Shown: positions 19,901 through 41,100, numbered from the stretch's first letter. The stretch: DNA of 64,000 nucleotides from Bacteroidia bacterium (GCA_039630325.1 JBCNVG010000013.1:48396-112395), one strand, 5' to 3'. Notes: generated by a model not told the origin, from the sequence alone. Made by a program: numbers and translations.

Positions 19901-22900
19901 ATGCAGCGTAACATACGTCCCCTCAGCGACACACTCCTCCTGGTTCATGGTGTTACAATCCCCCGTAAGTACCCGATAGAGCACCTGACTACCCAAGGCA
20001 GTTGTATTTTCCACGATCTGCACGTCAAAATCCATCGTATCAGGCGTGAGGTTATTCACGAGCACCCAGGCAGACTTCTTCCCTACAGGGGTGCCAAAAC
20101 ATGCCATGATTGTGTCGGCCTCTCCAGCACCTTCACCGATAGTGAGGCAGTTTATGAGCAGATTGGTAGAATACGGCCCCCCCGCAGCAGCCACAGATAT
20201 AGTCACGGAGTCTTGACAGAAATCCCCTGGATGCCTTTGGAGCCATATGCGGGGGACCACTAATCCGAGATGATTACACCCTGTGAACATAATATAGTAC
20301 CGCCCTGGCCGAATACATCCTCTACCCCAATAGCGGTATCCCAAAGTAGGATGCGTCTCCCACACCCCCGTCAGAGGAACCCGAACCAACCCAGTGGAAG
20401 AGGAATCGCCAGGTACAGCTTGATAATAAAGCTGTATATCATCGGGATGGTAGTTATACTGATTCACGCCAGGACGGTCATAGTTGAGAAAGACATAGCC
20501 TGTGATTGCTGATTCAAAAGCATACCAAATGGTTCGAGTTCCGCAAGCATTTTGGTCTGTGGGGTCTTTGGTAGCACAGGTAAGGTCTCCTTGACAGCCC
20601 GTGTAGGTACCAGCTGAAAGTGCCGCCCAGGTGTAAGGCAAGTCACATTGAGTAGTCGGATTAGCAACTATGACATTAGCCTCAGAATAGTGGTCGTAGT
20701 TTACGCCCCCTCCCGGCAAAGGTTCCAAACGCACTCCAACTTCCACCTGTATATTCGGTTCTTTACCACAGGTATTACGATACACTACTACGTAATATCG
20801 CTTTGGAGGCTTGCAGGCATCTCGTTGAAAGCTCACAGTAGTGTACTGGTCACAACACCACCACCAACCTTGCGAAGAGGCAACCAATGTGAGTCCATTA
20901 GCTATTGTTGAATCCACACTCGTCGGGAATGCCCCCGGAGGGTCATCGCTTTCATACACAGCAAACGCCGGCTGCCATCCCGTACCAGGGGTCTGAGCAT
21001 AAACACTGACATGTACGCGAACATTGCCCCCGGCTACGAAAGTATACCACAGATTACGACGCCGATCAGGTAGGGTCGTGGGGGGAGAAGCAGAACCAGG
21101 GTTGGTATTAACTACCCCCAGAGGACAGTTGGCAGAGGGATCTGTGCTGAAGGCGTCTGTAGTGCAGAAAATAAAGTCTGTACTCCCAGGCCGCCCGTAA
21201 GGTCCCAGGGGATCTCCTGGTCGGGTTCTATACTCCGTATTGTCTGGGGGAAGCGTGCCAAAATCATACGCATGAACAGCGTAATTATGCAGAGAATACC
21301 CTACCGAGTCCACATAGATAGTCGGCGTGTAAGTGGATCCGATACACCCATCACCTGCAAAAGTTACCAGGGTATAAGTCCCAGGTGGCACCCAGCATAT
21401 GCGCCCAGTACCCGAGAAACAATCATGAATAATGGTGTAAGGGGGAGCGTTGGCTGTAATGTCACCCTGATACAGGCGAGAAGAGCCATAGCAACCATTC
21501 TGATAGATGACGAGGTAACTGGGACGAGTAACAGAAAATACCCGATAGCTCACTCTATTCTGGCCTCCGCTACACGGGGTGATGCCAGAAGGAAAAGGTA
21601 AATTATTAGCACAGCCCCAAAACTCCCAATCCAGTGTATAGCTACGATGCTGATTAGGTGCGTAGACATAGTGAGGTACCCAGTCTAAGTTGCCAGGTCG
21701 GTCAGCCGTGGCAAAGGTGCCGAACTTCTGAACCCTCGGATCACGAGAGATAGTAAACCATATGCGATTTCCTATGGCCCCGCCCCTTCCGCTGGTATAT
21801 GAAGGGTTAGTGTATGTACCTCCCACCGCATATGCTACGAAAGTGTACCAGCCAGGCTCCATACACACTGTATATCCCCCATGACAGTCCATGAAGAGAG
21901 AAGTAAGGGTATTATTACTTATCCGTCCCCGAAAGGTTCGCCAACCGGTAACGCCCAGCTCTGGCCAGGCTACATAGGCATACTGCGGAGAGAAGGTTAC
22001 CAAGCTCGGTTCAGCGATATAAACTTCCCAATAAAACTGCTTAGTGGCACCGCCACACGGAGCATACCCTAAGATGGTTAGAGGATTATCATGGCAAGTA
22101 ACACGAGTCCAAGTCGCCGTCAAAGAGTGCGTAGCCCCCCCTATCGTCCCAACCTCCTCCACATTCGGACGGGGATCCGGATTCCCCGGCAGGCTCACAG
22201 GGGCTGTGGGGGTGTAAAATCGCCGCTCTCCAGGCGGGAATACATGAAAGCGAAACCATGGACGATCCCTTTCCCCAATGTCCGAGTCGTCACCAAAGCT
22301 TACCAAGGTATAGTAGCCAGGAGTTACACACACCTTGACAGGGTAGTAAAGGTCCTGACACCCCACCTGGTCAATCAAGTTCTGAATACGACCTCCTACA
22401 ATAGGTTCTACACGAGCATCCCCGCGGTAGAGCCTATACCTAAATCGCCACCAGTTCCCCCCACCCACTTCTAAAATCCCCTCTTGATCTACTCGGATAA
22501 TCCGATAAATAGCGCGATTATTACCTCCACCGCATACATCCCCAGCTGGTAGAACGGTGGTTCGGCAGTCTAAGGTATCCCACTGAGCGTAGTAAGTTAC
22601 CCCCGGAGTCAGGGGAAGTCCATTATTGATAGAGTCAGCTTCTTGAGGACGGATGTGAAGACCGAAATTCTGCTCAGGCGTGGAGCCTAACTGTACATGG
22701 AAACTAACGGGCAACCCCATAGCAGAATAAGGTGACCTGCAAGCCCCCCACAGAGCTGAACGATTGATGCGAGCCAGCACCTGTACGGTATAAGTTCCAG
22801 CTGTGAGACAATTCACCCACCCATCATTATCCACGACGGCTTTGAGAGGGAGATTGCATCCATTTATCGCGGGCGTGCCTTCAAAAACCCTAAATCGCAC

Positions 22901-24151
22901 CGTACCCATGCAGTACCACCAATCCCAGGGCCAGGGATAAGAGTACCAAAATCGCACATGCGCCGCCCCTGTCAGAGTAAACGTGTAGTACAGGGCTAAA
23001 TCAAAATCTCCTATTGTATCATCTGGGGTAACGGCACTACCAAAGGTGCCACAGGGATTATCAACGATACGGCTCTGACATCCCCAAAAGTCGCTGACTG
23101 TAAAAGTTGGACCAAAGGATAAAGTTCCTAAGTGATGAGTGCCTGGAATACTAAGGGGATTGTAGGATATCGCAGCTTGGCTACCGCGCTCATACAAGCG
23201 CAACCGAACCCTATTGGCGTAATTGGTACGCCCTAAAATTTTTATGGAATAATAGGTATTCGGCTGAAGCTGACACAACCTGTCATAACGAGCACCCGTA
23301 CTGCTATTGTTCTGAACCATGGGAATGCAGCCTTGGATGAGTGTCAGGCCGGCTGCCGAGTCAGTTAGCGCATTGCCCTGGTAGATGAAGAGCCGCCATT
23401 CCCTTGGGGAGGGATTAGAACTATTCCAAGGGTCCTCCATGAGCTCTATACCTACCCAATCCACATAAGCGTCGGTTCGGAATACATGCCATGTGGATTT
23501 ACTCCAGCTTGAGTCATTATCACAAATCGTCTCACCTTGACTCACAGACTGACAAGCGTAGTCAAAAGTGACATCCTTGAGCAAAACGGAACTTGCAGAA
23601 GTATTAAGGACCCCGAGGTTTTGAGCTGTGGCCATATGGTCATATTCCGCCTCCGCTCCTGCACTGATTGAGGGAGCGGATACGATCAGTTCTAAAAATA
23701 TTTGACCACTGACTGCAAGGTTAGCTCCCACCTGCACCATATACCAGCCCCGTTGAAGGCAGGCGTGTGTGTATCCCTCCATGAGGACTATGGGCGGGTC
23801 TACCCGTTGAGCTGGACCGGGTAAGCAGGTATTGCCCCGATAAAGTGTCCAACCCACATGCGTAGGGTCAATAGAATTCCCCACTTGTCGAAGGATGATG
23901 CGTACTGTCCGCGTCGTGGGTAGGTAGAAACGATACCATACACTTTTTCCATTCGGAACTCCAGGGGGAATATACTCACCCGCTTGGAGTGTAGCATTAG
24001 TGATATTTACGGTATCGCTGTAGAAAGTACCCACCCCATATGGACTATGCGGATTGCCGAAAGCGACGAAGGATCCATTAGCGCAGTTATCGTTCGAGGG
24101 GGGCTGGGCAAGTACTATGCTTACCCAGCCTATGACCCACACATGGCGCAT
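16958..24151 (-). CDS. Giant secreted cell-surface protein (2397 aa) with T9SS C-terminal sorting domain, PKD and F5/8-type-C (discoidin)-like domains, and an internal tandem-repeat array
   Basis: N-terminal signal peptide. The C-terminal about 80 aa match the Por secretion tail (PNPVTELLTVQFSLSEEKYVEVRVYDAKGALV...GIYTLQFFKDGEEISLKLLKLVP). A PKD-like motif (YYWLFGDGNTSTHFQPQHTYTVADTYLVCLRVSNG) and a discoidin-like block (WAMWRYPIPRSVNRIVFWACQ...) are present. About 12 GGPYDG repeats are also present. Confidence 0.85.
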   Translation of the reverse strand: MRHVWVIGWVSIVLAQPPSNDNCANGSFVAFGNPHSPYGVGTFYSDTVNITNATLQAGEYIPPGVPNGKSVWYRFYLPTTRTVRIILRQVGNSIDPTHVGWTLYRGNTCLPGPAQRVDPPIVLMEGYTHACLQRGWYMVQVGANLAVSGQIFLELIVSAPSISAGAEAEYDHMATAQNLGVLNTSASSVLLKDVTFDYACQSVSQGETICDNDSSWSKSTWHVFRTDAYVDWVGIELMEDPWNSSNPSPREWRLFIYQGNALTDSAAGLTLIQGCIPMVQNNSSTGARYDRLCQLQPNTYYSIKILGRTNYANRVRLRLYERGSQAAISYNPLSIPGTHHLGTLSFGPTFTVSDFWGCQSRIVDNPCGTFGSAVTPDDTIGDFDLALYYTFTLTGAAHVRFWYSYPWPWDWWYCMGTVRFRVFEGTPAINGCNLPLKAVVDNDGWVNCLTAGTYTVQVLARINRSALWGACRSPYSAMGLPVSFHVQLGSTPEQNFGLHIRPQEADSINNGLPLTPGVTYYAQWDTLDCRTTVLPAGDVCGGGNNRAIYRIIRVDQEGILEVGGGNWWRFRYRLYRGDARVEPIVGGRIQNLIDQVGCQDLYYPVKVCVTPGYYTLVSFGDDSDIGERDRPWFRFHVFPPGERRFYTPTAPVSLPGNPDPRPNVEEVGTIGGATHSLTATWTRVTCHDNPLTILGYAPCGGATKQFYWEVYIAEPSLVTFSPQYAYVAWPELGVTGWRTFRGRISNNTLTSLFMDCHGGYTVCMEPGWYTFVAYAVGGTYTNPSYTSGRGGAIGNRIWFTISRDPRVQKFGTFATADRPGNLDWVPHYVYAPNQHRSYTLDWEFWGCANNLPFPSGITPCSGGQNRVSYRVFSVTRPSYLVIYQNGCYGSSRLYQGDITANAPPYTIIHDCFSGTGRICWVPPGTYTLVTFAGDGCIGSTYTPTIYVDSVGYSLHNYAVHAYDFGTLPPDNTEYRTRPGDPLGPYGRPGSTDFIFCTTDAFSTDPSANCPLGVVNTNPGSASPPTTLPDRRRNLWYTFVAGGNVRVHVSVYAQTPGTGWQPAFAVYESDDPPGAFPTSVDSTIANGLTLVASSQGWWWCCDQYTTVSFQRDACKPPKRYYVVVYRNTCGKEPNIQVEVGVRLEPLPGGGVNYDHYSEANVIVANPTTQCDLPYTWAALSAGTYTGCQGDLTCATKDPTDQNACGTRTIWYAFESAITGYVFLNYDRPGVNQYNYHPDDIQLYYQAVPGDSSSTGLVRVPLTGVWETHPTLGYRYWGRGCIRPGRYYIMFTGCNHLGLVVPRIWLQRHPGDFCQDSVTISVAAAGGPYSTNLLINCLTIGEGAGEADTIMACFGTPVGKKSAWVLVNNLTPDTMDFDVQIVENTTALGSQVLYRVLTGDCNTMNQEECVAEGTYVTLHLKCRPPLKSFWIQVVMPEWATGDITVHVTANPIQQTCIPPDPDRPRANFDFVGSCSGQSIQFLNYSSVGPGIQYYWLFGDGNTSTHFQPQHTYTVADTYLVCLRVSNGTQADTACRYLIIYPMPGVSVTMSPPSPVWLGIPITFSPTYVDTVNGTGANIYWNFCANGSAGCGASQIDYSGPVPPPVSYTIPGRKRVCVTVTNGTLCDSTFCIEFDVIWPARAGGPYDGSATAVVLASCSTLSYIGGPYDGSATQVIVASCPMPIAGGPYDGSATEVVVASCPTFSYVGGPYDGSATQVIVASCPMPIAGGPYDGSASEVLLANCPTLSYAGGPYDGAATAFVGAICWDITEYTGGPYDGAAVAAIINCPLPELPYAGGPYDGSASGVVLASCPTFSYVGGPYDGSATQVIVASCPMPIAGGPYDGSASGVVLASCPTFSYVGGPHDGAATQIVLSGCPLPIAGGPYDGAATAYTTNFLAQEKDTAVCAGSSLTLQAGVPSNWYLTPSSGTPIASNTPTLVISSLTQSQLYWVENSCSAERVPIAAIALPRIDGQFSISPIPYCTGQPVTFTNQTLVSGPSQPSFGTLITGFGIHGTVPNMSQLTFSSVQTANFAQLGDGIYQNGTAWTANNPGASTQWAMWRYPIPRSVNRIVFWACQSCPNAAQRLPRRARLYYNDGSGWKLAKTFSFTPGSYVYDSGIFTETQVIFAHLWRLEFDVQAANAPTFGEFQVYSSSPVIGGNVQWSCDNGSTWSSGGSQSCTWSTPGTKTITMVVSAPGACPDTVQQTVNVTNCSPLPAIQSVLAAYPTPEAHIRLLWQTNVPIQYALLQKRVDTGWVEVYRYPVQGSTSFSWIDSFPSFEQTNLYRVVSEHLGGEVAYSNLAEVRFPREVSGPIQELVRAFPNPVTELLTVQFSLSEEKYVEVRVYDAKGALVSYITPQSYSAGFHEVQIDVRSWATGIYTLQFFKDGEEISLKLLKLVP
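18481..19248 (-). repeat. In-frame tandem repeat array (about 12 units of 63-66 nt, i.e. 21-22 aa) inside the giant gene
   Basis: The DNA motif gacccatcatacggacc recurs about every 60-70 nt. It encodes GGPYDGSATQVIVASCPMPIA alternating with GGPYDGSASGVVLASCPTFSYV. Several units are identical at the protein level. Confidence 0.8.
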
Positions 24152-24186: not shown

Positions 24187-25689
24187 TTATCGGGCACCTC
24201 GGCCACCAACATGGTGATGTCTATGAGAAGGATTGCGATTATTTGAACACCCATGGTTAGGGAACGAGCAGTTCCGAGCGGAAACCCTATGCTCGCGCCA
24301 GTCATTACCCCATGAGCCTCCTCTGAGCCCAAATCCCGCAGGGTTTCCTAAGGGCCAGGAGGGTTGATTAGCCGCTCCGGTCCCCCAATCCAACACTCCG
24401 TCTCCCCAATTGCCTGTATAAGTAGGCGAGCCTACTGTCCCATCGGGTGCCGAAACCATTACCACCATCTCCCACACGTTTCCGCTCATATCCATAACTC
24501 CATAGTACGAGGCGCCGCTGGCTTCCCTATTGGGAGAACCTGGCTTAGCATGAATCCCCACCCGAACAGGTCCTTGGCCGCCATCTCCACCACTGTAGTT
24601 CCCCCCAATCCACCCCGTACAGTTAGCATTTGAGGGAGCACTAAAAACCTCGGTTCCGTTTTCCGGTGTAATGCTCAAAGTAGTGCCGAAATTAATGTTC
24701 GTAGAGCCCCATGCATATTCCCCCCTAACTTCAGGGAGCGCCCCCCTGCATATTTTCTCGTATTCCATTTCCGTGATAGGGCGTAGAGCCGCCCAATCCA
24801 GATAAGCACAGAGATCATGCCAGGATAGGTAGTTTTGTGCTCTATCCTCTCTATCAGAAAAGTACTGAGAGGGATAGACCCCAGTATTAGCTAACCTGTT
24901 ACGATAGCTATTGAATGACCCTAAATATCTTAGTGAGGCGGCACCTGCGGGTAAAGTGTTCAAAAAAGCTGCATACTGACCTTGCGATATTTCATATTTC
25001 ATTACGTGGAAAGCCTTATAACCCTTCGGGAAACTGGTAGGAACATTTATGGAAGTAGAGCCTGAACCAGCCCATTTGAGAGAAATAGCTGCTTCTGAGG
25101 TAATGTTATAGGGTATGTGAGGATTACCACTATTCCCATTCTGATCAAAAGCACGGGCTGCTTCATCGCTCCAATCATGCCACCCATCTAAAGTACCTAA
25201 GACGTAAGCTCCCTCGGGTATAAACACCATCTCTATCCCAAAAATCCTAAAGTCATACTGTCCAGTCGTAGGCAAATTCGTTACCTTAAGAGTAACGCTG
25301 TGAGGTCCGAATGTCGCATAGGTACCCGCATTTGCCGGGCGGAGCATGATGCCCAGATTATTCGGCGCAGGATCTACCCCTACTCCACTCCCATCAGCTA
25401 AAACTGGCTCTAACGCGGCGGGTATCGTGTGATCGCTCAGCGTTGTACTTATCTGTCCATGAGTCCATGGGTCAACAAACTGATTACACGCCCTAAACTT
25501 TACAAAAATCCAAACGGCATCCCAGTTAGCTGGGGGTGTGGTGAGACGCCAGGCATTCTGCCAGCTTACTTGAAAGGAAACGGTCTGGTTAGCTTGGTTT
25601 ACAGTAAAATTCGTTATTTGCAGGTTATTCGCCAGCAGAGAAAGGCTACTCAGTAGCCCGACAGCTATATAGTAGCAGCTCCGTGTCAT
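24187..25689 (-). CDS. Secreted FGE-sulfatase (SUMF1/EgtB/PvdO) domain protein with an N-terminal beta-rich extension
   Basis: Signal peptide (MTRSCYYIAVGLLSSLSLLA). The FGE-domain motifs are IEMVFIPEGAYVLG, YEISQGQYAAFL, GNVWEM and RGGSWGNDW. It lies 35 bp upstream of the giant T9SS cargo gene in the same direction. Confidence 0.75.
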   Translation of the reverse strand: MTRSCYYIAVGLLSSLSLLANNLQITNFTVNQANQTVSFQVSWQNAWRLTTPPANWDAVWIFVKFRACNQFVDPWTHGQISTTLSDHTIPAALEPVLADGSGVGVDPAPNNLGIMLRPANAGTYATFGPHSVTLKVTNLPTTGQYDFRIFGIEMVFIPEGAYVLGTLDGWHDWSDEAARAFDQNGNSGNPHIPYNITSEAAISLKWAGSGSTSINVPTSFPKGYKAFHVMKYEISQGQYAAFLNTLPAGAASLRYLGSFNSYRNRLANTGVYPSQYFSDREDRAQNYLSWHDLCAYLDWAALRPITEMEYEKICRGALPEVRGEYAWGSTNINFGTTLSITPENGTEVFSAPSNANCTGWIGGNYSGGDGGQGPVRVGIHAKPGSPNREASGASYYGVMDMSGNVWEMVVMVSAPDGTVGSPTYTGNWGDGVLDWGTGAANQPSWPLGNPAGFGLRGGSWGNDWREHRVSARNCSFPNHGCSNNRNPSHRHHHVGGRGAR

Positions 25690-27239: not shown

Positions 27240-27385
27240 TATATATAAATGCCACTCCCCCTGCTTGCCTCAGAACTGTCCCTTCTCGGGAAAGCAAGCC
27301 GACCCATACTTGGCTGCAAGGGAGTAGATTAGCTTCAATCGTAACCTAAGCTCCTCATATCGGGGCTTCCCAAATCTAAATACAT

Positions 27386-30352
27386 TTGCGTCTCATGAAG
27401 AGTGTTTTGCTTTTCGTAGGAACTGTACTGCCCCTTTTAGCCCAAGAAATTCTTCTGAGAAGGGTTCAGAAAGCTTCAAATCCAGCTTCTCAAACTCCTC
27501 CAGTTGAGAGCCAAGCCCCCCTTTATCTCAAAGGAAAAGTGGTTGACGCAAATACTCGCGAACCCCTAATGGGAGCGTATATTAGAATTCCTGGCAGTGT
27601 CGTGGGAGCTATAACCGATTCTCACGGGGAGTTTCGTATCCCCACGACTCTCACAAGCCCAATATCAGTAGAGGTTCAATACCTCGGATATCAGACGCAG
27701 CAGGTACTCCTCCATCCAGCAAAAGAAAATGCTGCTTCAACTGAGATTGCTCTAAAAGAAGAAGAAATCGTTGGTCAAGAGGTGGTAATCTCAGCTTCTC
27801 GGATAGAAGAGCAATTCATGAAAACCCCTGTCCAAATCGCTCAGCTATCAAGCTTGGCGCTACGAACAAGTCCCAGCCTCCTATCAGCTCAAACTTTATC
27901 CTTTCTACCTGGGATAGATGTGGTGCACACCAGTCTTACCTTCCCGGTGGTAAATAGTAGGGGGTTCAACTTTACTCAGAATCCTCGCTTCATCAACCGC
28001 GTAGATGGAATAGAAATGCAATCTACAGCTCTAAATGTACCTGTTCTCACCTTCACAGCACCTCCTGAAATAGATATAGCGAATGTAGAAGTAGTCGCTG
28101 GCCCTGCTTCTGCTCTATACGGCCCCAATGCGTTCAATGGAGCGATGATAACGACCCTAAAAGACCCTTTCCAATATCCAGGCCTGTCTGCCCATGTGAG
28201 ATTAGGTATAAACCACGTAGGAAACTCTCAACGAGGTAACGCAGCCCCTTTATATGACTTTCAAGCTCGATATGCTCGGAGTTGGAATAATCGACTGGGT
28301 GTCAAGGTGGCTTTACATGGACTTTCAGGAGAGGATTGGTGGGCCACAGACCGTTCCGATCGCGGCATATATGCTGGTGCGTCCTATCCCTACGACATAC
28401 CTGGGCCCCATAACCCTGGCTATGTACCTCTCAACGGATATGGGTATGATGCCCGAGTACTTTTACGCAACTTTCCTTTGCCCTTCTTCGATGGCACTCG
28501 CATGCCTGACTTCTATCTGAGTCGGACAGGCTACATGGAAACCGAGTTGGTCTCTAACAAAGTTCAAATTGCGAAGATTACGGGGGGCCTATTTTACCGG
28601 TTTTCTGACCAGCTCATGGGTCAGCTAACCTTTCATGTAGCGAATGGCCGCACCGTTTATCAAGCTAATACCCGATATTCTTTAGAAAACTTTCTTTTCC
28701 ATGCCTATAAAGCGGAAATAACCCACTCCAGGGGATTTTTACGGCTTTATACGATACAGGAGAATGGAGGACGCTCTATACCTCTTGGCCTCTTAGGGGT
28801 GAATCTTCTGCAAGCTGTCAAACCGCATTCGGACTGGTTTCCGCAGTATTTAGTCACCTATGCAGGTTTCTTAGATGGAATGATCTCTGCCCAAGACCGA
28901 GCGGCGTTTGAAGCCTACTATGGCCGTCCTGTTCCACAAATGGGAGATCACGCAGGGGCTCGATGGCTTGCGGACAGCGACACCCGGTTTTTAGCGACCC
29001 TTCCGTCTGCGGCTCCGGTAGTAGCTATCCTTGGCGGACGATGGGATGTAGGGCGAGCCCGTCCTGCCCCCAATAGCCCTGAACTGCGCCGCCTTGTAGA
29101 TTCTCTGAGTCGCATACCCATCACGCAAGGAGGGGCTCTCCTTGTAGATAGGTGCGCCTTACATCACGCAGAAGCTCAGTATGAGTTGCCCTCTATTTGG
29201 AATCTGCAAACCGTAGTTGGTGGCAGCTTCCGTCTATTTGAGATAAACTCTCGCGGCACCATTTTTGCTGATACCCTCGGAAGGCCCATTTACAACTGGG
29301 AAACCGGGGCTTACATTCAAACTCGGCGCCACCTTTGGGATGAGAGGCTTCAACTCACCCTGGGGCTACGATATGATTACAGACAATATTTGATTGGACA
29401 AATCACTCCTCGCACTGCCCTCAGTTGGAGCTGGGACCGAAAGAATAACCACATTCTCCGTCTGACCTATCAAATGGGCTTTCGTAATCCAACAAGTGAA
29501 GCCCTATTTATCCATCTCCAAACAGATGCCCTCCTGATCGGAGCGCTTCCTCAAACAGATAGAGCGTTGGGCATCGCAGGATTGAATAACTACACCAAGT
29601 CGTCCGTAGAAGCTTTTCGAGCGGCTCGAGCCCAAGGTGTCCCAATCGATGAAGCTGCGAAGCTCCTTCGCAGCCTCCCCATAAATGGTATTCGGCCCGA
29701 AAAAGTCCAGAGTTTAGAAGTAGGCTCACGCCATCTTCTTTTTGACCAGAAACTTCTCATAGATGTAACTTACGCTTATCAGCGATATAGAGATTTTCAT
29801 GGAAACGTCCGAATATATGGGCCAGCCGATAAGGTCAGCCAACTTTCACCGCAAGATGTTGAAAATGATCGTCTTTCTCCCCTCTATGGTCGTTACTTCA
29901 ACATTCCAGGAACCCCCCAAGCCCAGTTCTTTACTATTGCCCTCCAGTACCGAATCAACCGTTATCTCCTAGCCAATGCCAACTATACCTATGCCCAAGC
30001 TTGGGGATTAGAGGAGACAAAGAGTCTAGACCCTGGCCTAAACATGTTCTTCAACACCTCTCCTCATCGGGCCAATGCAGGTATCTGGATACAAAATCTG
30101 GGTCGCTGGAATGCCCAGTTATGGTATCAGTGGGTACATGCGTATCTTTTTGAGTTTCCCAACTATAAGGGTATTGTCCCGACTTACAACCTTCTCCATG
30201 CCCAGGTCAGTTATCGTCTGCCGCGATGGCATAGTGAAATACGGCTTGGGGCCCAAAACTTGTTGAACTTTTATCACATTCAGGTGCCTGGCGGCCCTCG
30301 CATCGGTGCTGTCTATTACATTCAGTACAGCTTTGATAGTTTGAGCCTGTGA
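27386..30352 (+). CDS. TonB-dependent outer-membrane receptor (carboxypeptidase-regulatory-like domain + plug + barrel)
   Basis: Signal peptide, then CarbopepD_reg signature (LKGKVVDANTREPLMGAYIRIPGSVVGAITDSHGEFRIP). Plug motifs follow (NSRGFN, VDGIEM, IANVEVVAGPASALYGPNAFNG), then a long beta-barrel region. Confidence 0.7.
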   Translation: MRLMKSVLLFVGTVLPLLAQEILLRRVQKASNPASQTPPVESQAPLYLKGKVVDANTREPLMGAYIRIPGSVVGAITDSHGEFRIPTTLTSPISVEVQYLGYQTQQVLLHPAKENAASTEIALKEEEIVGQEVVISASRIEEQFMKTPVQIAQLSSLALRTSPSLLSAQTLSFLPGIDVVHTSLTFPVVNSRGFNFTQNPRFINRVDGIEMQSTALNVPVLTFTAPPEIDIANVEVVAGPASALYGPNAFNGAMITTLKDPFQYPGLSAHVRLGINHVGNSQRGNAAPLYDFQARYARSWNNRLGVKVALHGLSGEDWWATDRSDRGIYAGASYPYDIPGPHNPGYVPLNGYGYDARVLLRNFPLPFFDGTRMPDFYLSRTGYMETELVSNKVQIAKITGGLFYRFSDQLMGQLTFHVANGRTVYQANTRYSLENFLFHAYKAEITHSRGFLRLYTIQENGGRSIPLGLLGVNLLQAVKPHSDWFPQYLVTYAGFLDGMISAQDRAAFEAYYGRPVPQMGDHAGARWLADSDTRFLATLPSAAPVVAILGGRWDVGRARPAPNSPELRRLVDSLSRIPITQGGALLVDRCALHHAEAQYELPSIWNLQTVVGGSFRLFEINSRGTIFADTLGRPIYNWETGAYIQTRRHLWDERLQLTLGLRYDYRQYLIGQITPRTALSWSWDRKNNHILRLTYQMGFRNPTSEALFIHLQTDALLIGALPQTDRALGIAGLNNYTKSSVEAFRAARAQGVPIDEAAKLLRSLPINGIRPEKVQSLEVGSRHLLFDQKLLIDVTYAYQRYRDFHGNVRIYGPADKVSQLSPQDVENDRLSPLYGRYFNIPGTPQAQFFTIALQYRINRYLLANANYTYAQAWGLEETKSLDPGLNMFFNTSPHRANAGIWIQNLGRWNAQLWYQWVHAYLFEFPNYKGIVPTYNLLHAQVSYRLPRWHSEIRLGAQNLLNFYHIQVPGGPRIGAVYYIQYSFDSLSL

Positions 30353-32442
30353 AAAAGGTATTTCTATATCTCACAGGGATAAGTATAGGATGGGGGGGGC
30401 CTTGCGAATCCTGTCAGGATGACGTTCTTTGTCTAAGTCGCTGCGCATATCAAGCCCTCTCTAATGCCCAGTCTAAGGAAGAGCTGCATGAGGCCACCCT
30501 TCTCTTGGCTTATAGCTGGCTTAGAGGTGATTTCGTGGAGGGGGTGCCTCGCCTGGTTTTCCCAGTTTTAGATGATCCGAAAGCCTCGGATTCCCTCCGC
30601 TTACAGGCCATATTGTTTTTAGCTCAAGCGCATTACAAGCTGGGACGACTCGACTCAGCAACTGTGTGGTATGAGCGAATAATTGAACGCAGCCAAGCTT
30701 ATCCTTTTCTAAAAGCACGAGCGCATTTGGGGTTAGCTGCCCTCTTAGCCAAGCGCAATCTCATGCAGGCTCTTAGCCAAGCGTCGGAAGCCAGCGAGAT
30801 CGCTGACCGAATCCAGTATCCTCTCCTGGTCGCTGTTGCTTACACCCAGTTAGCCTATCTCATGGCAGAGCAACGCAACCGGTCCCTCGCTCTTCAATAT
30901 GCTGAAAAAGCCGTTCAGGCCGCTCAAGTCGCACTTGATCAAAATCAACGCCACCTCCTTCTAAGCTCTCCGATGGAGACTTACCTAGCAGCGGTGGCTA
31001 ATTTAGCCTCATTATATGCTGAAGTCGGACGACAAAAAGAGGCGGAGTCGCTGTATCGTCGCATTTTATCTGAGGCTAAAAGCGATAGCCTTGCTATAGG
31101 CCAAGCTGTGATTGGATTAGCTTTACTTCACCTTCAAAATCGTTCATATGGAGAAGTAGAGCGCCTTCTGACATCTTATCATCCCCTTTTTAGCGCCTTG
31201 CCTTACGAACTTCGTAGGGAAGCCTTACGATTACAAGCCCAGCTTTACGTAGCCCAAAACCGCTTGGCCGCCGCTTTGTCTATCTATGAAAAGCTTTTAG
31301 AACAAGCCGAAACACAGGGCATGCAAGCACAGACCAATCGTATTGAGCAGCTTCGGACCTTAGCGGGCATAGAAGCTCAAGAAGCTCAACTGCGCAGTAT
31401 GGAGAATGCTCGCCGTAAAGAAAGGCTGCTGTACCTTAGCTTAGGAGGAATCGGAGTTCTGCTATTAGCTGTCATGGGATGGGCTACTTACATAGCCAGG
31501 AAACGAGCTTCTGAAGAGCGAAGCTTCCGAGATGTTATCGCTACTCAAGCTCAAAAGATACAAGAACAGACTCGGATGTTAGAGCAGCAAAATGCCGAGC
31601 TAATCCGAATCTCAGAGGTAATGACAGAGGCGCTGACCACAGTACAAGAATCTTACGCGGCCGCCCGACGGTTGCAAAGGGCTATCATGCCAGACATAGA
31701 AAAACTGATATCAGGTTCAGCCCTCTATTATCATCCCATGCAAGAAGTAAGTGGAGATTTTTATGTGCTTGCTTACGATCCCTCCACTGCACGCATTCTC
31801 GTCGCAGTTGGAGACGCAACCGGTCATGGAATCAGCGGAGCAATATTGGCGGGTATTTTTTCCTCTACCATACAAAATCTTTTTTATCGTAACCCTTCCC
31901 AATCTCCTCAATCTCTATTGAAGGGCCTACTAAAATCAATGCAAAGTTTTCTGAACTTAGATCCAGGGAGCAGAGCTGCTCCGTTGCGCGAGGGAGCAGA
32001 TTTAGCTGTTGGAATTGCTGACTTCCGCTATAAAAAACTGTATCTGGGATTAGCTGGAAGACCTGTTTGGCTACTCACACCAGAGGGATTGAAAGAGTTT
32101 GAAGGAGGGCGGCGTGGCATAGATAGTTACACGCCGCTTGATTACGAGTTTCGTGAGTATGAAGAGTCTTTGAATGAAGAGAGCTCTATTTTCCTTTTCA
32201 CAGATGGTATTTCTGATGCTCTTAGCCCAGATGGAAAGAAACTTGGTATCAAAGCTTTACGTGCTCAAGTAGAATCTGAAAGCTTTCTCACATCCACCGC
32301 AGGAGAGCAGCGAGATAAGATTGTTACTTTCCTGAATGAGTGGACCCAAGGAAGGCCTCCGAACGACGATGTCACTATGATTATTTTACCAATTCGATCA
32401 CTGTATGAATATGCCCAGGCTCGACTCTTGAAACAATCTTAG
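30349..32442 (+). CDS. TPR-repeat sensor fused to a PP2C/SpoIIE-family serine phosphatase, single TM
   Basis: N-terminal TPR region, a TM helix (LLYLSLGGIGVLLLAVMGWATYIA) and a C-terminal SpoIIE/PP2C domain (SGDFYVLAYD...VAVGDATGHGISGAILA...NDDVTMIIL). The GTG start overlaps the TonB-receptor stop (GTGA). Confidence 0.8.
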   Translation: MKKVFLYLTGISIGWGGPCESCQDDVLCLSRCAYQALSNAQSKEELHEATLLLAYSWLRGDFVEGVPRLVFPVLDDPKASDSLRLQAILFLAQAHYKLGRLDSATVWYERIIERSQAYPFLKARAHLGLAALLAKRNLMQALSQASEASEIADRIQYPLLVAVAYTQLAYLMAEQRNRSLALQYAEKAVQAAQVALDQNQRHLLLSSPMETYLAAVANLASLYAEVGRQKEAESLYRRILSEAKSDSLAIGQAVIGLALLHLQNRSYGEVERLLTSYHPLFSALPYELRREALRLQAQLYVAQNRLAAALSIYEKLLEQAETQGMQAQTNRIEQLRTLAGIEAQEAQLRSMENARRKERLLYLSLGGIGVLLLAVMGWATYIARKRASEERSFRDVIATQAQKIQEQTRMLEQQNAELIRISEVMTEALTTVQESYAAARRLQRAIMPDIEKLISGSALYYHPMQEVSGDFYVLAYDPSTARILVAVGDATGHGISGAILAGIFSSTIQNLFYRNPSQSPQSLLKGLLKSMQSFLNLDPGSRAAPLREGADLAVGIADFRYKKLYLGLAGRPVWLLTPEGLKEFEGGRRGIDSYTPLDYEFREYEESLNEESSIFLFTDGISDALSPDGKKLGIKALRAQVESESFLTSTAGEQRDKIVTFLNEWTQGRPPNDDVTMIILPIRSLYEYAQARLLKQS

Positions 32443-37943: not shown

Positions 37944-37994
37944 GACGCGAAGTAAAACATTATTGAGGCTGAGTGTGTACCTTTGTTCAAAGTA

Positions 37995-38078
37995 GCCCAG
38001 ATGGCGGAACAGGTAGACGCGCCAGTCTCAAAAACTGGTGGAGGCAACTCCGTGCCGGTTCGAGTCCGGCTCTGGGCA
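37995..38078 (+). tRNA. tRNA-Leu (anticodon CAA)
   Basis: The sequence folds as a cloverleaf by hand. Acceptor GCCCAGA/TCTGGGC+A, anticodon stem CCAGT/ACTGG with loop CTCAAAA, a long variable arm, and a TTCGAGT T-loop. Confidence 0.85.
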
Positions 38079-38135
38079 CGAGCCCTCCGAGGACTAAAAA
38101 AAACTCTCGTCAGAGCCCTCCTACTAATAGGCATT

Positions 38136-41100
38136 TTGTGGGCTACTCTACTGGTAGGGATTTACCTCCTTCTCTCCACCGAGACGGGGCATAATATCAT
38201 TCGCCAGCAAGTCGTCCGCTCTATTTCAGAAGCGCTTGATACGGAAGTAGAAATACAGAGCCTTCGCCTCTCTGGGATAGCCAGTATTTCCATAGAGGGT
38301 TTTGTCCTCTACGATAAAGCCTGTCAGCCCTTCATCCGTGCGCCTGAGCTGCGAATAACTTGGTATCCATTCGCATTTTGGCAAGGTCTGTGGGTAGGAC
38401 GAAAGCGAATTCCATTTTCAGCCATAGAACTGATTAGGCCCCAAGTGTATATATACACTGAACGCGCTTCTAAGCTAACGAATGTAAATCGCTTATTCGC
38501 TACCTCCGATACTACCCCCTCTAAGCCGAGTGAGTGGAAAGTGAGCCTTCCCTCGGTGGAGCTCCACAATGGACAGTTCATATGGATAGATTCCACCCTA
38601 CCTGCCTTGGAACTCACCCCCAGGCCAGGTTTTCTGCGATACGGCCACCTGCGAATGGATTCAATATTTTTAGAAGCCAAAGTAGAATGGAGTGGAAAGG
38701 GTATCCTTTTTACCCACATAAAAAGCCTTCAGCTCATAGAATCCAACTCTGGTATGCCCCTTCACCAGCTTAGCCTTACCCTTCAAGCTTATCCAGACAG
38801 CGTCCGAATCCCGCATTTATTCATTCAGCTACCGAAGAGTAAGATAACAGGCAAGGGGTATTTCCCCTATGAAGGTTTAGACAAACTCTTCAAGAGCACC
38901 GAGACTAAGCTATTTTATGCCGAGCTTACTGGCCAAGTAGACTGGTCAGAGATAGCTGCTTTGGTGGGAAATTCTCTACCCTTACGGGGGGTGTGGGAAA
39001 CTCACATCCATCTCCATGGAGATCTATACCGATTTCACGCAGACAGCTTTTATGCTCGCATCTCCTCCCAAACTTTCCTAAGAGGAAGCGGGGAAATAAC
39101 CCGCTATGCTAAACCCAACCTGATGCGATGGAATGTTTTTACCATGGAAGCAGAATTCACATGGAATGATCTCGCTGCGTCTATTCCTGAAATTGGTCCT
39201 CCTTTACCCGATTGGCAGGGAAGTCATGTGTGGAAAATCCGAGGCAGTCATGAGGGACGGCTTGACTATTACACAGCCGATGTGTACAGCTTAGGCGCCC
39301 ACATTCAGGGTGCGCTTCGTAGGGACACGGCATGGAACTATGATCTGCATGCAGAATTCAATCATTGGCAGCTACCCCCTATCTTAGAAACGCCCATCAC
39401 GACGATTGCCAATGGCACCATCCATCTTCAGGGTACAGGATTCAGCTTAGAAAACCTCCAATCTGAACTCCGCTCTGATCTTACTCTCTTGGACACCGCG
39501 GGAAAAGCCTGGGCCGTACAAATCCAAGCTGACCTTCGAGAGGGCACGGCAGATGGAAAATTTTCTCTGCATACCCCCTATGGAAAACTTAACTATGCAG
39601 GACAACTGCCTCTAAGCGTCTCAGGGACCTATCAGGGCTCAGGTACTTTCGCTGACATTTCAGGCTCCTTATGGGGAGGCAAAGGCACCCTTAGTGGCAA
39701 CTTCAAGGTAGAAGGGAAAGACATACCATGGAAAAATGGAGCTGCCCAACTTTATCTCAAAGACTTGCTCTGGCAGCAAATAGACACTACCTACGAACTG
39801 GGAGCAGGCTCATTGTCTGTACGCAATGGCAATGCTTATGATCTCCAGGCAGAGGGGCTCTCCCTGTCAGCGAAAACAAATGGCGCTTGGCTCAAAGCGC
39901 TATCCCAATGGCTAAGCTATTGGATTCTGAACGATACGATCCACCTTGACTCCCTACCGTCCTCATGGGCGATCCAAGGCAACTTTCATCTAAGAAATCC
40001 AGCCTGGATAGCGGTCTTTGGACTGCCTCCTGAACTTCGCCTACACAACTTATCTGTCTCTATCGCTATACAAGCAGAGGCTACCTTCCCCGCAGGAGAG
40101 CTTCAGGCCACAATTGACAGCCTAAGGTACGCAGACTTGATATTCCACTCGCCCCATCTCTCAGCGCATCTGAGAGGAGATTCCCTAAATGTACAGTTTG
40201 GCTCAATTCATGGAAAGGCTTATCTTGAGTACAAAAGTCTGCACGGTAGCTTGACGGGGACATGGCGCAAGGGTAGTCTTACTATCGGTACTCACTTCCA
40301 TGAATGGAATGACTCAGCAAGACTGGCGTTGGAATGGGATTACTCCCCTCCCATGCTCAGCGTACAGCTAAATAAAGAAGCCTCTGCCTTGATGCTTGGA
40401 GGGTACCCTTGGCAATTTATTGAAGCATTTCCTCTACTCTTCAATACCGAAAATGGAGAATGGGAGCTCAAAAGCCTACGATTAGAAGGACTCCAAGCCC
40501 AAGTAAACCTTTATCGTTTAGAGCGACGGTTATTTTTAAACATATCACGATTTCCCTTATCAGTAGGTGGAGAACTTCTGGGACTAAAGGCTTCCATCGG
40601 AGGGGACCTTTCCCTTCTCTGGGAAGCCTACGAAAGAGGTGCACGATTTGCCCTGGAGATAGACTCGCTTCAGTATGAGCAGCAGCAGTATCCACACATT
40701 CAAGTGGTAGGCGTGCCTTCAAACGATTCCATTCCCTTTCAACTTTTTATACGTGATGAGAATAGCACGTGGATGACAGGGCAAGGCATTTACAAGCTGA
40801 ACGATACTGTATCCCCAATATACGCAGAGCTCCGTTCTATACGAATACCTGTGCGTTGGTTTGATCCTTTCATAGGAGAGTACATTCAAAATATCAAAGG
40901 CACTTTACTTTCTCAGCGGCTCATTCTACAAGGGAAGCCCAATAGTCCCAATATCTACGGTGAGCTTTTTTGCAATAATGTCAGTTTCTACCTGCCTATC
41001 ACAAGAGTAAGCTACACGGTGGAGGGAGTGCTTCGTTTACGAAAAGATACGATATTTTTTCCGAATGTAGAGCTGCGTGAAGCTCAGGGTAAACGAAGTT

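What the first reader, a model, noticed from the sequence alone, without database searches (positions are those of the whole stretch)
27386..32442. TonB-dependent receptor translationally coupled to a TPR-TM-PP2C/SpoIIE phosphatase
The TonB-dependent receptor gene ends in ...SLSL-TGA. The next gene starts at a GTG that overlaps this stop (ctGTGAaa). That implies translational coupling and co-transcription with the TPR-transmembrane-PP2C protein. PP2C/SpoIIE phosphatases with extracytoplasmic sensor domains usually control partner-switching or anti-sigma-antagonist cascades. A fixed pairing with an outer-membrane TonB-dependent protein suggests a trans-envelope signalling module, with OM ligand binding relayed to an inner-membrane phosphatase. 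This is analogous in logic to TonB-dependent transducers and anti-sigma factors but uses a different inner-membrane component. A TAnnTTTG-like -7 element (TACATTTG, 27369-27376) lies just upstream of the receptor ATG.
Basis: partly seen in the sequence, partly recalled or inferred. Interest (0 to 1): 0.6.

Follow-up and report, generated by a model that had tools for sequence, protein, structure and literature searches.

The report
Outer-membrane transporter paired with sensor phosphatase
A TonB-dependent outer-membrane transporter gene is fused, stop-to-start, to a gene for an inner-membrane phosphatase with a periplasmic TPR sensor domain; the same pairing recurs in a second, unrelated gene family, so it may be an undescribed way for Bacteroidota to signal across the cell envelope.

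Summary
A 985-aa TonB-dependent transporter (27395-30352) ends in a GTGA that is also the start of a 697-aa protein (30349-32442). That protein has a signal peptide, a near-invariant four-cysteine motif, about 8 TPRs, one membrane helix and an intact PP2C/SpoIIE domain.

The pair has one Bacteroidota-type promoter box (TACATTTG, at 27381-27388, not 27369-27376). The stop/start overlap is kept in 10 of 13 sampled lineages, down to 35-38% phosphatase identity, while flanking genes change. The three unpaired phosphatase genes each have their own promoter box.

A second, non-orthologous pair (an 800-aa TBDR plus an 850-aa TPR-TM-SpoIIE protein, from a large Bacteroidales family) has the same layout in 3 of 3 loci.

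The system is not a classical TonB-dependent transducer: there is no STN domain, no FecR and no ECF sigma factor. No STAS or RsbW partner lies in the window ORFs scanned (46 of 49) or in the gene tables of the relatives' flanks. The TBDR carries recent nonsense or frameshift mutations in three lineages whose phosphatase is intact.

Functional coupling is well supported. Direct relay versus sensing of imported cargo remains open. I rate it a new variant of envelope-spanning signalling, known from genomic evidence only.

The parts
27381..27388 (+). Bacteroidota-type -7 promoter box TACATTTG, 6 nt before the TBDR ATG. It implies a leaderless or very short-leader mRNA and is the only such box for the two-gene unit.
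   Evidence: The same motif lies 5-15 nt upstream of the TBDR start in L001, L004, L007 and L020. It also lies 4-9 nt upstream of both tRNA genes of the window. No + strand TAnnTTTG occurs between 27389 and 32442.
27395..30352 (+). TonB-dependent outer-membrane transporter, 985 aa. It comprises a signal peptide, a disordered N-terminal peptide, an NTE domain, a TonB box, a plug and a 22-strand-type barrel.
   Evidence: Pfam finds CarboxypepD_reg and Plug. The AlphaFold model matches Cir, PfeA, BtuB, FepA and OprC at E about 1e-20, TM 0.55-0.64. Orthologues are 70-80% identical.
27395..27442 (+). TBDR signal peptide (res 1-16), cleaved before the invariant Gln17.
   Evidence: Sequence MKSVLLFVGTVLPLLA|QE. 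Q17 is invariant in alignment A2.
27443..27526 (+). Mature N-terminal peptide QEILLRRVQ plus a roughly 20-aa linker (res 17-44). It is periplasmic and predicted disordered. The motif is specific to the 56-80% TBDR clade.
   Evidence: Alignment. pLDDT is about 30 for res 1-40.
27527..27790 (+). N-terminal extension domain (CarboxypepD_reg-like beta-sandwich, res 45-132).
   Evidence: PF13715, E = 9.5e-17. It matches the solved NTE domains 9hfj and 6ytc. AF2 strands span res 43-120.
27779..27799 (+). TonB-box-like segment EVVISAS (res 129-135).
   Evidence: Read by inspection. Conserved as QEVVISASR across the family.
27818..28144 (+). Plug domain (res 142-250).
   Evidence: PF07715, E = 4.7e-9, above the gathering score.
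28145..30349 (+). Beta-barrel (res 251-985), with a confidently predicted alpha-helical insert at res 464-571 (28784-29107).
   Evidence: AF2 secondary structure and pLDDT. Foldseek matches to TBDT barrels. PF00593 is not hit in this protein but is in the 40%-identity relatives.
30349..30352 (+). GTGA: the start codon of the phosphatase overlaps the TGA stop of the TBDR.
   Evidence: ATGA occupies the same place in L001-L007, L093 and L173. L020 has the same 4-nt coordinate overlap.
30349..32442 (+). Bitopic inner-membrane sensor phosphatase, 697 aa.
30349..30399 (+). Signal peptide of the phosphatase (res 1-17).
   Evidence: A positively charged n-region and a hydrophobic h-region are present in the full-length orthologues, with AxA or AQ cleavage-type sites.
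30403..30444 (+). Four-cysteine motif C19-x2-C22-x5-C28-x3-C32 (PCExCxxxxxCLGxCAY), at the mature periplasmic N-terminus.
   Evidence: All four Cys are at least 90% conserved and are kept in the 38-40% identical orthologues. Mean pairwise identity of the segment is 61%, against 48% for the TPR region.
30454..31263 (+). Periplasmic TPR superhelix (res 36-305, about 15 helices, roughly 7-8 repeats).
   Evidence: Pfam TPR hits. AF2 pLDDT is 85-96. It resembles the peptide-binding TPRs of LGN/Pins and kinesin light chain.
31264..31422 (+). Periplasmic stalk: the first part of one continuous helix (res 306-382) leading into the membrane.
   Evidence: AF2.
31423..31491 (+). The single transmembrane helix (res 359-381).
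   Evidence: It is the only internal 19-residue window with a Kyte-Doolittle score above 1.5. It is present in all orthologues and is followed by ARRRAxEE.
31492..31689 (+). Cytoplasmic linker helix (res 382-447), the most conserved segment of the protein.
   Evidence: Mean pairwise identity is 70.5%. AF2 predicts a helix at res 394-446.
31690..32418 (+). PP2C/SpoIIE phosphatase domain (res 448-690) with its catalytic motifs intact.
   Evidence: PF07228. Invariant D470 (GDFY), D489 (GDxTGHG), D619 (TDG) and N672-D673-D674. These align with the same motifs in SiaA-PP2C 6k4e. Foldseek TM is 0.84-0.86 to 6k4e.

Best explanation
Shown: the two genes form one transcription unit. A single TAnnTTTG box lies 6 nt before the TBDR start, and the start of the second gene overlaps the stop of the first. 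The unit encodes (i) a TonB-dependent outer-membrane transporter and (ii) a bitopic inner-membrane protein. The second protein's N-terminal 340 residues (four-Cys motif plus about 8 TPRs) lie in the periplasm, and its catalytically intact PP2C/SpoIIE domain lies in the cytoplasm.

Inferred: the two proteins work together as an envelope-spanning sensor. The mechanism I commit to is direct monitoring. Ligand loading of a TonB-dependent transporter releases its N-terminal and TonB-box segment into the periplasm. The TPR superhelix, a fold that binds extended peptides, captures that segment of its cognate transporter (the QEILLRRVQ tail, NTE and TonB-box region). The signal passes down the continuous stalk/TM helix and the highly conserved cytoplasmic linker helix, and switches the PP2C domain. 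The PP2C domain then dephosphorylates a phospho-Ser/Thr protein encoded elsewhere, most likely a STAS- or SiaC-type partner-switching protein. The logic is that of FecA-FecR cell-surface signalling, with a phosphatase in place of the anti-sigma factor.
For: Operon structure:
- GTGA or ATGA overlap is conserved in 10 lineages.
- A promoter box precedes the TBDR only, and 6 of 10 paired loci have no box within 400 nt of the phosphatase start. All three unpaired phosphatase genes have their own box 5-27 nt upstream.

Selection for adjacency:
- The pair is kept down to 35-38% phosphatase identity (L020, L173) while the flanks differ.
- Paired lineages sit on both sides of the midpoint root of the phosphatase tree.

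Independent recurrence:
- A non-orthologous 800-aa TBDR (no NTE) is followed by an 850-865-aa SP-TPR-TM-SpoIIE protein in L146, L144 and L098. Two of these have a TGATG overlap. Between L146 and L098 the phosphatase is 34% and the TBDR 46% identical.
- Other TPR-TM-SpoIIE families follow housekeeping genes, so the adjacency is not generic.

Topology and competence.

TPR as a protein or peptide reader:
- The structural neighbours are the peptide-binding TPRs of LGN/Pins and kinesin light chain.
- The periplasmic 8-TPR sensor of P. gingivalis FimS is thought to bind a polypeptide (PMC11053733).
- The TBDR N-terminus is disordered and carries a clade-specific conserved peptide.
- A sister TBDR subclade sits next to another secreted TPR protein, TPR-CHAT.
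Against: - No physical interaction has been shown or modelled.
- The TBDR has no STN signalling domain.
- Three phosphatase lineages (P0018/L008, L095, P0149/L174) are unlinked from any TBDR yet keep the whole sensor domain.
- TBDR paralogues with the same N-terminal peptide (L011, L016, L018) have no adjacent TPR gene.
- The TBDR carries a frameshift or in-frame TAG codons in three lineages whose phosphatase is intact.
- The family-2 TBDR has no NTE and no QEILLRRV peptide. The only common periplasmic element would be the TonB-box region and the plug face.
- No substrate (STAS, SiaC or RsbW) was found nearby.
Confidence: 0.38

Rival explanations
1. Import-coupled sensing without contact. The TBDR brings a substrate into the periplasm. 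The four-Cys/TPR domain binds that substrate, or a product of it, and sets PP2C activity. This is how hybrid two-component sensors of Bacteroides PULs read oligosaccharides imported by SusC/D.
For: The operon evidence is the same as for the main explanation. The TBDR has no signalling domain. Unlinked but retained phosphatase and TBDR genes occur in one genome, DT_Bin_56 (L010 and L174), which suits a diffusible signal. In Bacteroidota the HTCS-type periplasmic sensor (Reg_prop/Y_Y_Y) is also found fused to SpoIIE, as in L137.
Against: TPR superhelices are typically protein or peptide binders, not small-molecule sensors. The substrate is unknown: there is no riboswitch, no SusD, and no metabolic genes are conserved beside the pair.
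Confidence: 0.3
2. Periplasmic thiol/copper stress sensor. The CxxC...CxxxC motif at the mature N-terminus senses copper or disulfide stress. The TBDR is a metal or chelate importer, and the divergent CopA-type exporter belongs to the same circuit.
For: The four Cys are nearly invariant and form the most conserved periplasmic segment. A Cu(I) P1B-type ATPase (TIGR01511, above cutoff) is divergently adjacent to the TBDR in L001-L006. In the P0018 lineage the phosphatase lies near DsbD, thioredoxin reductase and thioredoxin genes.
Against: CopA is absent beside the pair in the window, L007, L020 and L093. The redox neighbours occur in one lineage only, not in L095 or L174. The TBDR alignment has no invariant Cys or Met like the OprC copper site. 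Family 2 lacks the Cys motif. The cysteines may simply be structural disulfides.
Confidence: 0.12
3. Co-expression only. The two proteins share a promoter because both are needed under the same condition, or because of inherited gene order, and no information passes between them.
For: The pair is uncoupled in three lineages. The TBDR is recently inactivated in three lineages while the phosphatase stays intact. Family 1 is confined to a small clade, with about 10 clusters among 1.84 billion representatives.
Against: The overlap is kept across 35-69% phosphatase identity with unrelated flanks. The same architecture recurs in a non-orthologous family. Only those 3 of 77 other SpoIIE loci have any TBDR nearby.
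Confidence: 0.15
4. Reverse direction. The phosphatase regulates the transporter, for example by controlling its expression or the TonB/ExbBD energising complex, rather than reading it.
For: Co-transcription would allow autoregulation. PP2C sensors commonly control sigma factors that could drive this operon. This is inference only.
Against: No tool result bears on it. The large conserved periplasmic domain argues for an input role.
Confidence: 0.05

Closest known systems
TonB-dependent transducer / cell-surface signalling (FecA-FecR-FecI; SusC-like transducers with anti-sigma/ECF-sigma in Bacteroides)
   Same: An outer-membrane TonB-dependent protein is co-encoded with a bitopic inner-membrane protein that has a periplasmic reader and a cytoplasmic effector. 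The proposed logic is OM ligand occupancy leading to a cytoplasmic response (background: PMC11637429, PMC5411451).
   Different: There is no STN signalling domain on the TBDR, no FecR-type anti-sigma factor and no ECF sigma factor nearby. The inner-membrane partner is a TPR-PP2C phosphatase, so the output would be Ser/Thr dephosphorylation rather than regulated proteolysis.
SiaA of the P. aeruginosa SiaABCD pathway, and RsbU/SpoIIE-type partner-switching phosphatases (including Chlamydia RsbU with a periplasmic sensor domain)
   Same: The PP2C domain is closest to SiaA-PP2C (6k4e: sequence E = 3.5e-29, Foldseek TM 0.84-0.86). Next come RssB, Rv1364c-RsbU, RsbX and SpoIIE. It is a membrane-anchored sensor phosphatase with an extracytoplasmic input domain (PMC7647112, PMC11619594).
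   Different: No SiaB/SiaC/SiaD or RsbV/RsbW genes are adjacent. The NCBIfam SiaA model scores 67.7 bits against a cutoff of 700. The sensor domain is four-Cys plus TPR. None of the known systems is paired with a TonB-dependent receptor.
P. gingivalis FimS (sensor kinase with a periplasmic 8-TPR domain)
   Same: It is a Bacteroidota inner-membrane signalling protein whose roughly 370-aa periplasmic sensor is a cluster of about 8 TPRs. Its ligand is unknown and thought to be a polypeptide (PMC11053733).
   Different: FimS has two TM helices and a histidine-kinase output. No sequence relationship was detected, and no four-Cys motif or TBDR partner is known for it.
SusC/SusD transporters with hybrid two-component sensors
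   Same: It is a Bacteroidota TBDT with an N-terminal CarboxypepD_reg-like extension (NTE). A dedicated inner-membrane sensor with a periplasmic domain is encoded in the same locus.
   Different: There is no SusD-like gene. TIGR04056 scores 72.6 against a cutoff of 368, and only over the NTE and plug. The sensor is a phosphatase, not an HTCS.
PorA-PorXY signalling of the type IX secretion system
   Same: It offers a Bacteroidota precedent for a protein of the outer envelope acting as ligand of an inner-membrane sensor. This comes from the title and abstract of PMC12152298 as listed.
   Different: The components are different (T9SS cargo-like PorA and histidine kinase PorY). It is an analogy only and was not tested here.

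Membership tests
TonB-dependent transporter (TBDT) | Plug domain (PF07715) | tested here: met
   E = 4.7e-9, 37.1 bits against a cutoff of 23.9, res 142-250.
TonB-dependent transporter (TBDT) | 22-strand beta-barrel | tested here: met
   PF00593 is not hit in this protein. The AlphaFold model has about 22 strands and matches Cir, PfeA, BtuB, FepA and OprC at E = 1e-20 to 1e-16, TM 0.55-0.64. Full-length homologues at 40% identity carry PF00593.
TonB-dependent transporter (TBDT) | TonB box N-terminal to the plug | tested here: inconclusive
   EVVISAS at res 129-135 is conserved in the family and resembles BtuB's DTLVVTA, which I cite from memory. It was identified by inspection only.
TonB-dependent transducer / cell-surface signalling | N-terminal STN signalling domain (PF07660) on the receptor | tested here: not met
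   The Pfam and NCBIfam scans show only CarboxypepD_reg and Plug. The same holds for the family-2 TBDRs.
TonB-dependent transducer / cell-surface signalling | Adjacent FecR-type anti-sigma factor and ECF sigma factor | tested here: not met
   None among the 46 window ORFs scanned, nor in the gene tables of L001-L009.
SusC/RagA-type transporter | Full-length match to TIGR04056, and a SusD-like gene downstream | tested here: not met
   TIGR04056 scores 72.6 bits against a cutoff of 368.25, over res 45-257 only. The downstream gene is the phosphatase.
PP2C / SpoIIE phosphatase (PF07228) | Domain match above the gathering score | tested here: met
   69.5 bits against a cutoff of 25. Fold match to SiaA, RssB, RsbU, RsbX and SpoIIE.
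PP2C / SpoIIE phosphatase (PF07228) | Metal-binding Asp motifs (GDxx, DxxGHG, TDG, DD) | tested here: met
   D470, D489, G492-H493-G494, D619-G620 and N672-D673-D674 are invariant in 17 sequences. They align with the same motifs of SiaA.
Partner-switching module (RsbU-RsbV-RsbW / SiaABC) | STAS/SiaC-type substrate and HATPase-type kinase/anti-sigma encoded with the phosphatase | tested here: not met
   No STAS, DUF1987 or HATPase_c_2 hit appears in the 46 window ORFs scanned or in the relatives' gene tables. The rest of the genome could not be searched.
SiaA equivalog (NF038263) | Score above the curated cutoff | tested here: not met
   67.7 bits against a cutoff of 700, over the C-terminal half only.
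   There is a signal peptide with AxA or AQ sites, and one internal TM helix at res 359-381. The four conserved cysteines all lie within the first 32 residues. Basic residues (ARRRAxEE) follow the TM helix. No dedicated SignalP or TMHMM run was available.

The most novel reading that the evidence does not exclude
This is a previously unrecognised class of TonB-dependent cell-surface signalling in Bacteroidota. The periplasmic TPR domain of an inner-membrane PP2C phosphatase reads the ligand-dependent exposure of its cognate transporter's N-terminal and TonB-box segment. It converts that into Ser/Thr dephosphorylation of a partner-switching protein. The arrangement either arose twice or is ancient enough that two families have lost all sequence similarity. 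The window family adds a periplasmic four-cysteine redox or metal module.
Probability: 0.25. Interest if true: 0.8.

Novelty: new variant of a known kind. Interest (0 to 1): 0.62.

Why it matters
Trans-envelope signalling from TonB-dependent receptors is known essentially in one form: an STN domain, a FecR-type anti-sigma factor and an ECF sigma factor. Bacteroidota carry very many TonB-dependent receptors and many orphan SpoIIE-type sensor phosphatases whose inputs are unknown.

A conserved, translationally coupled TBDR-(TPR-TM-PP2C) unit, seen in two unrelated families, gives a concrete and testable input for one class of these phosphatases. It would link outer-membrane nutrient or ligand detection to Ser/Thr phospho-signalling.

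It also offers a candidate ligand type, a transporter's exposed peptide, for periplasmic TPR sensors such as FimS, whose signal is still unknown. Family 2 is common in Bacteroidales (more than 110 sequence clusters), so a culturable host for experiments may exist.

Tried and rejected
1. Classical transducer. I looked for STN, FecR and ECF sigma. None is present in the receptor or its neighbours.
2. Local partner-switching genes. No STAS or RsbW appears in the 46 window ORFs scanned or in the relatives' flanks (same calls, plus 13-19).
3. SusC/D reading. There is no SusD, and the TIGR04056 score is far below cutoff.
4. Riboswitch that would reveal the substrate. Rfam finds only two tRNAs in the window.
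5. OprC-like copper site. The TBDR alignment has no invariant Cys or Met. CopA adjacency is not universal.
6. Redox-gene neighbourhood (DsbD, TrxB). It occurs in one unpaired lineage only.
7. A broader TBDR-PP2C link through two other arrangements: a small soluble PP2C directly upstream of the 40%-identity TBDR paralogue (6 loci), and PAS-SpoIIE upstream of the 35% paralogue. I judged both to be inherited synteny within one clade. PAS-SpoIIE is followed by LolA and PyrF in L001-L003 and by ORFs of matching size in L031 and L034. They are not independent evidence.
8. TAG-as-Trp recoding, to explain three in-frame TAGs at conserved Trp codons of the TBDR. I rejected this because neighbouring genes are intact. 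L004, 99.5% identical to L019, has TGG at that codon.
9. PP2C-specific features in the TBDR N-terminus. The QEILLRRV peptide is shared with unpaired paralogues.
10. Fused-chain AlphaFold model of the TBDR N-terminus plus the TPR domain with a paired alignment.
11. Literature. No paper combines a TonB-dependent receptor with a PP2C/SpoIIE/RsbU partner.
12. Sigma-70 promoter and terminator scan. Hits were at background level and uninformative for this phylum.


Full report
OBSERVATION. The window holds two same-strand ORFs, 27386..30352 and 30349..32442. The first ends ...SLSL-TGA. The second begins at a GTG inside ctGTGAaa, so start and stop share 4 nt at 30349-30352. Two details of the finding need correction. 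TACATTTG lies at 27381-27388, not 27369-27376. The TTG at 27386 is the tail of that motif, and the real start is the ATG at 27395 (MKSVLLFVGTVLPLLA|QE...), as in every orthologue.

THE TWO PROTEINS.
Protein 1 (985 aa) has these parts:
- A signal peptide.
- A disordered mature N-terminus, QEILLRRVQ plus a linker (pLDDT about 30).
- A CarboxypepD_reg-like N-terminal extension (PF13715, E = 9.5e-17).
- A TonB-box-like EVVISAS segment.
- A Plug domain (PF07715, above cutoff).
- A barrel that Pfam's PF00593 misses. The AlphaFold model of the barrel matches Cir, PfeA, BtuB, FepA and OprC at E about 1e-20. It carries a confidently predicted helical insert at residues 464-571.

It is not a SusC: TIGR04056 scores 72.6 against a cutoff of 368, and there is no SusD. 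It has no STN domain.

Protein 2 (697 aa) has these parts:
- A signal peptide.
- A near-invariant motif, PC19ExC22xxxxxC28LGxC32AY.
- About 15 TPR-type helices (res 26-302, pLDDT 85-96).
- One continuous helix, res 306-382, that contains the only internal hydrophobic segment (res 359-381).
- A cytoplasmic helix, res 394-446.
- A PP2C/SpoIIE domain (PF07228, 69.5 bits).

The catalytic motifs GD470FY, GD489xTGHG, TD619G and ND673D674 are invariant, and they align with those of SiaA-PP2C. SiaA-PP2C (6k4e) is the closest solved structure, with sequence E = 3.5e-29 and Foldseek TM 0.84-0.86. RssB, Rv1364c-RsbU, RsbX and SpoIIE follow. The TPR part resembles the peptide-binding TPRs of LGN/Pins and kinesin light chain.

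These are the signal peptide, the four conserved cysteines all lying within the first 32 residues, and the single TM helix. The most conserved segments are the cytoplasmic linker helix (70.5% mean pairwise identity) and the Cys motif (61%). The TPR region is at 48% and the PP2C domain at 52%.

ONE TRANSCRIPTION UNIT. TAnnTTTG is enriched in the window (46 against about 30 expected). It sits 3-14 nt before an in-frame start codon for 15 of 49 genes, and 4-9 nt before the 5' ends of both tRNA genes. It therefore behaves as the Bacteroidota -7 promoter box, with very short or absent leaders. The TBDR has such a box 6 nt before its ATG, and the orthologues L001, L004, L007 and L020 have one 5-15 nt upstream. 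No box lies on the + strand between 27389 and 32442. Six of ten paired loci have none within 400 nt of the phosphatase start. All three unpaired phosphatase genes carry their own box 5-27 nt before the ATG. Co-transcription is thus well supported. Translational coupling is a reasonable inference from the overlap.

CONSERVATION OF THE PAIR. The phosphatase family is small. The word-indexed search found about 19 sequences. Only about 10 clusters among 1.84 billion representatives match the whole periplasmic domain, and all have the same 690-706-aa architecture. All named members come from uncultured 'Bacteroidia bacterium' MAGs.

A TBDR orthologue ends in an ATGA or GTGA overlap with the phosphatase start in the window and in nine other lineages: L001, L002/L003, L004/L019, L005, L006, L007, L020, L093 and L173. 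That makes ten lineages, with phosphatase identity down to 35-38%. The flanking genes differ among them.

Three lineages are unpaired: P0018 (L008, L009, L094), L095, and P0149 (L174). P0149 is in the same MAG that holds a related TBDR elsewhere, at L010. In a neighbour-joining tree of the phosphatases, paired lineages lie on both sides of the midpoint root. Pairing therefore looks ancestral and was lost at least twice.

The paired TBDRs of the main group form one clade. L020 lies in a neighbouring subclade, whose other members (L010, L017) instead follow a secreted TPR-CHAT protein. The TBDR is more conserved (70-80% identity) than the phosphatase (45-69%).

A SECOND, NON-ORTHOLOGOUS PAIR. 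I screened 77 metagenome loci that had been fetched through the SpoIIE motifs. Three of them (L146, L144, L098) have an 800-aa TBDR directly followed by an 850-865-aa protein. The TBDR has Plug and PF00593 domains but no NTE and no STN. The second protein has a signal peptide, TPRs, a coiled coil, a TM helix, another coiled coil and a SpoIIE domain. L146 and L144 have a TGATG overlap, and L098 has a 23-nt gap.

L146 and L098 share only 34% (phosphatase) and 46% (TBDR) identity, yet they keep the arrangement. Against the window pair, similarity is limited to the PP2C domain (24%) and the plug. This family has more than 110 sequence clusters, named as Bacteroidales MAG proteins.

Other TPR-TM-SpoIIE families in the same sample follow MurF-Alr, ArgS, GltX or a TPR-cyclase gene. 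TBDR adjacency is therefore specific, not generic. This recurrence is the strongest argument that the pairing is functional.

WHAT IS ABSENT. The TBDR has no STN domain, and no FecR or ECF sigma gene is nearby, so this is not a classical TonB-dependent transducer. No STAS, SiaC or RsbW gene appears among the 46 window ORFs scanned or in the relatives' gene tables, so the phosphatase substrate is encoded elsewhere. There is no riboswitch.

COMPLICATIONS. The TBDR is disrupted in three paired lineages while the phosphatase stays intact.
- The P0013 lineage (L002/L003) has a frameshift. About 20 contigs carry this phosphatase, and their neighbouring genes are mostly the same proteins.
- L005 has two in-frame TAGs at Trp codons.
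- L019 has one TAG at the invariant W913. Its 99.5%-identical relative L004 has TGG there.

These are recent, strain-level events. They show that the receptor is often lost, perhaps under phage pressure; that cause is inference. They say little about long-term dependence.

MECHANISM.
Shown: a two-gene operon, its topology, an intact catalytic site, and selection for adjacency in two families.
Inferred: the two proteins form an envelope-spanning sensor.

I commit, at about 0.38, to direct monitoring. The TPR groove binds the periplasmic N-terminal and TonB-box segment that a TBDT exposes on ligand loading. The stalk/TM helix and the conserved linker helix switch the PP2C domain. This would be the logic of FecA-FecR with a phosphatase in place of the anti-sigma factor.

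The main rival, at about 0.30, is import-coupled sensing, as in SusC/D-HTCS systems. A copper or thiol-sensing variant (about 0.12) rests on the four-Cys motif and on a divergent CopA-type ATPase in L001-L006. That ATPase is missing beside the pair in the window, L007, L020 and L093, and family 2 has no Cys motif. Pure co-expression (about 0.15) is hard to reconcile with the second family.

COMPARISON AND NOVELTY. The closest known systems are listed below.
- TonB-dependent transducers: same logic, but the defining features were tested and not met.
- SiaA/RsbU-type sensor phosphatases: same catalytic domain, but no local partners and no receptor partner.
- FimS: the same kind of periplasmic TPR sensor, with a kinase output (PMC11053733).
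- SusC/D with HTCS.

Full-text searches found no paper linking a TonB-dependent receptor to a PP2C/SpoIIE partner. I class the finding as a new variant of a known kind (envelope-spanning, receptor-linked signalling). It rests on comparative genomics only. I rate interest at 0.62. The idea is testable and could assign inputs to a large class of orphan Bacteroidota phosphatases, but no interaction, ligand or output has yet been shown.

Noticed in passing
L146:66-5020; L144:3-2974; L098:39-5044: A second, non-orthologous TBDR + SP-TPR-TM-SpoIIE gene pair. L146 and L144 have a TGATG overlap. It belongs to a large family of Bacteroidales MAG proteins (more than 110 clusters). L098 also has a convergent second TPR-TM-SpoIIE paralogue at 5052-7346 (-).
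   Followed up: partly
L005:7047-10004; L019:7659-10946; L002/L003:6979-10004: The TBDR is disrupted in three paired lineages while the phosphatase is intact. L005 has two in-frame TAGs and L019 has one, all at conserved Trp codons (TGG to TAG). L004, 99.5% identical to L019, has TGG at that codon. The P0013 lineage has a frameshift.
   Followed up: partly
L001:4759-6945(-), L002, L004, L005, L006 (same position): A Cu(I)-type P1B ATPase (CopA-like, with an HMA domain) is divergently transcribed about 100 bp upstream of the TBDR in five lineages. It is absent beside the pair in the window, L007, L020 and L093. A link to the periplasmic four-Cys motif is possible but untested.
   Followed up: partly
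L010:5138-7954 and L017:5096-7912, upstream of TBDR paralogues: A secreted TPR-CHAT (caspase-like) protein sits 8-40 nt upstream of a sister TBDR subclade. It is split by a stop or frameshift in L017. This is another periplasmic TPR protein next to this TBDR family.
   Followed up: partly
L012:7237-7980, and L021, L026, L028, L030, L036: A 247-aa soluble PP2C (PP2C_2/SpoIIE) lies directly upstream (about 20 nt in L012) of the 40%-identity TBDR paralogue in six loci of the same bacterial group. It is probably conserved synteny, but it is a third TBDR-PP2C adjacency.
   Followed up: partly
L037-L092 (Cytophagales genomes): The 31-34%-identity TBDR relatives sit in a conserved three-gene arrangement in about 39 of 54 loci: a GldC-like protein (166 aa), the TBDR, then a GDSL-lipase-like protein (about 490 aa). 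This hints that the wider TBDR family has a housekeeping or gliding-related role rather than a nutrient-specific one.
   Followed up: partly
window, e.g. 3152-3159(-), 5610-5617(-), 9788-9795(-), 15955-15962(+), 37978-37985(+), 58223-58230(+), 58958-58965(-): TAnnTTTG lies 3-14 nt upstream of the start codon of 15 of 49 genes, and 4-9 nt upstream of tRNA-Leu (37995) and tRNA-Ser (58235). This organism seems to use leaderless or very short-leader transcripts widely.
   Followed up: partly
window 37983-42413 (+) and 37995-38079 (+): The longest ORF of the TamB-like gene (TTG at 37983) overlaps tRNA-Leu(CAA). The true TamB start must lie downstream of the tRNA.
   Followed up: no
window 28784-29107 (TBDR res 464-571): A roughly 110-residue alpha-helical insert in a barrel loop is the most confidently predicted part of the TBDR model (pLDDT above 90). 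A second, shorter helical insert lies at res 719-757. Their function is unknown. They may explain why PF00593 does not match.
   Followed up: no
window 16958-24151 (-): A 2397-aa protein with PKD/Ig-like domains and a Por_Secre_tail (type IX secretion C-terminal sorting domain). Next to it lies an FGE-sulfatase-domain gene (24187-25689, -).
   Followed up: no
window 27371-27388: The TBDR promoter box is half of a near-palindrome, CAAATCTAaaTACATTTG. A second TAnnTTTG (TAGATTTG) therefore faces the opposite way at 27371-27378 (-), with no minus-strand ORF of 80 aa or more behind it. The palindrome is not visible in the upstream sequences of the orthologues printed.
   Followed up: partly
L137:1655-4837: A Reg_prop/Y_Y_Y periplasmic sensor, the type found in hybrid two-component systems, is fused through one TM helix to a SpoIIE phosphatase. 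This shows that Bacteroidota swap kinase and PP2C outputs on the same sensor types.
   Followed up: no
L173:872-3183: In this old metagenome contig the paired phosphatase gene has a frameshift near residue 60. The N-terminal 60 residues lie in another frame. This is either a sequencing error or a pseudogene.
   Followed up: no
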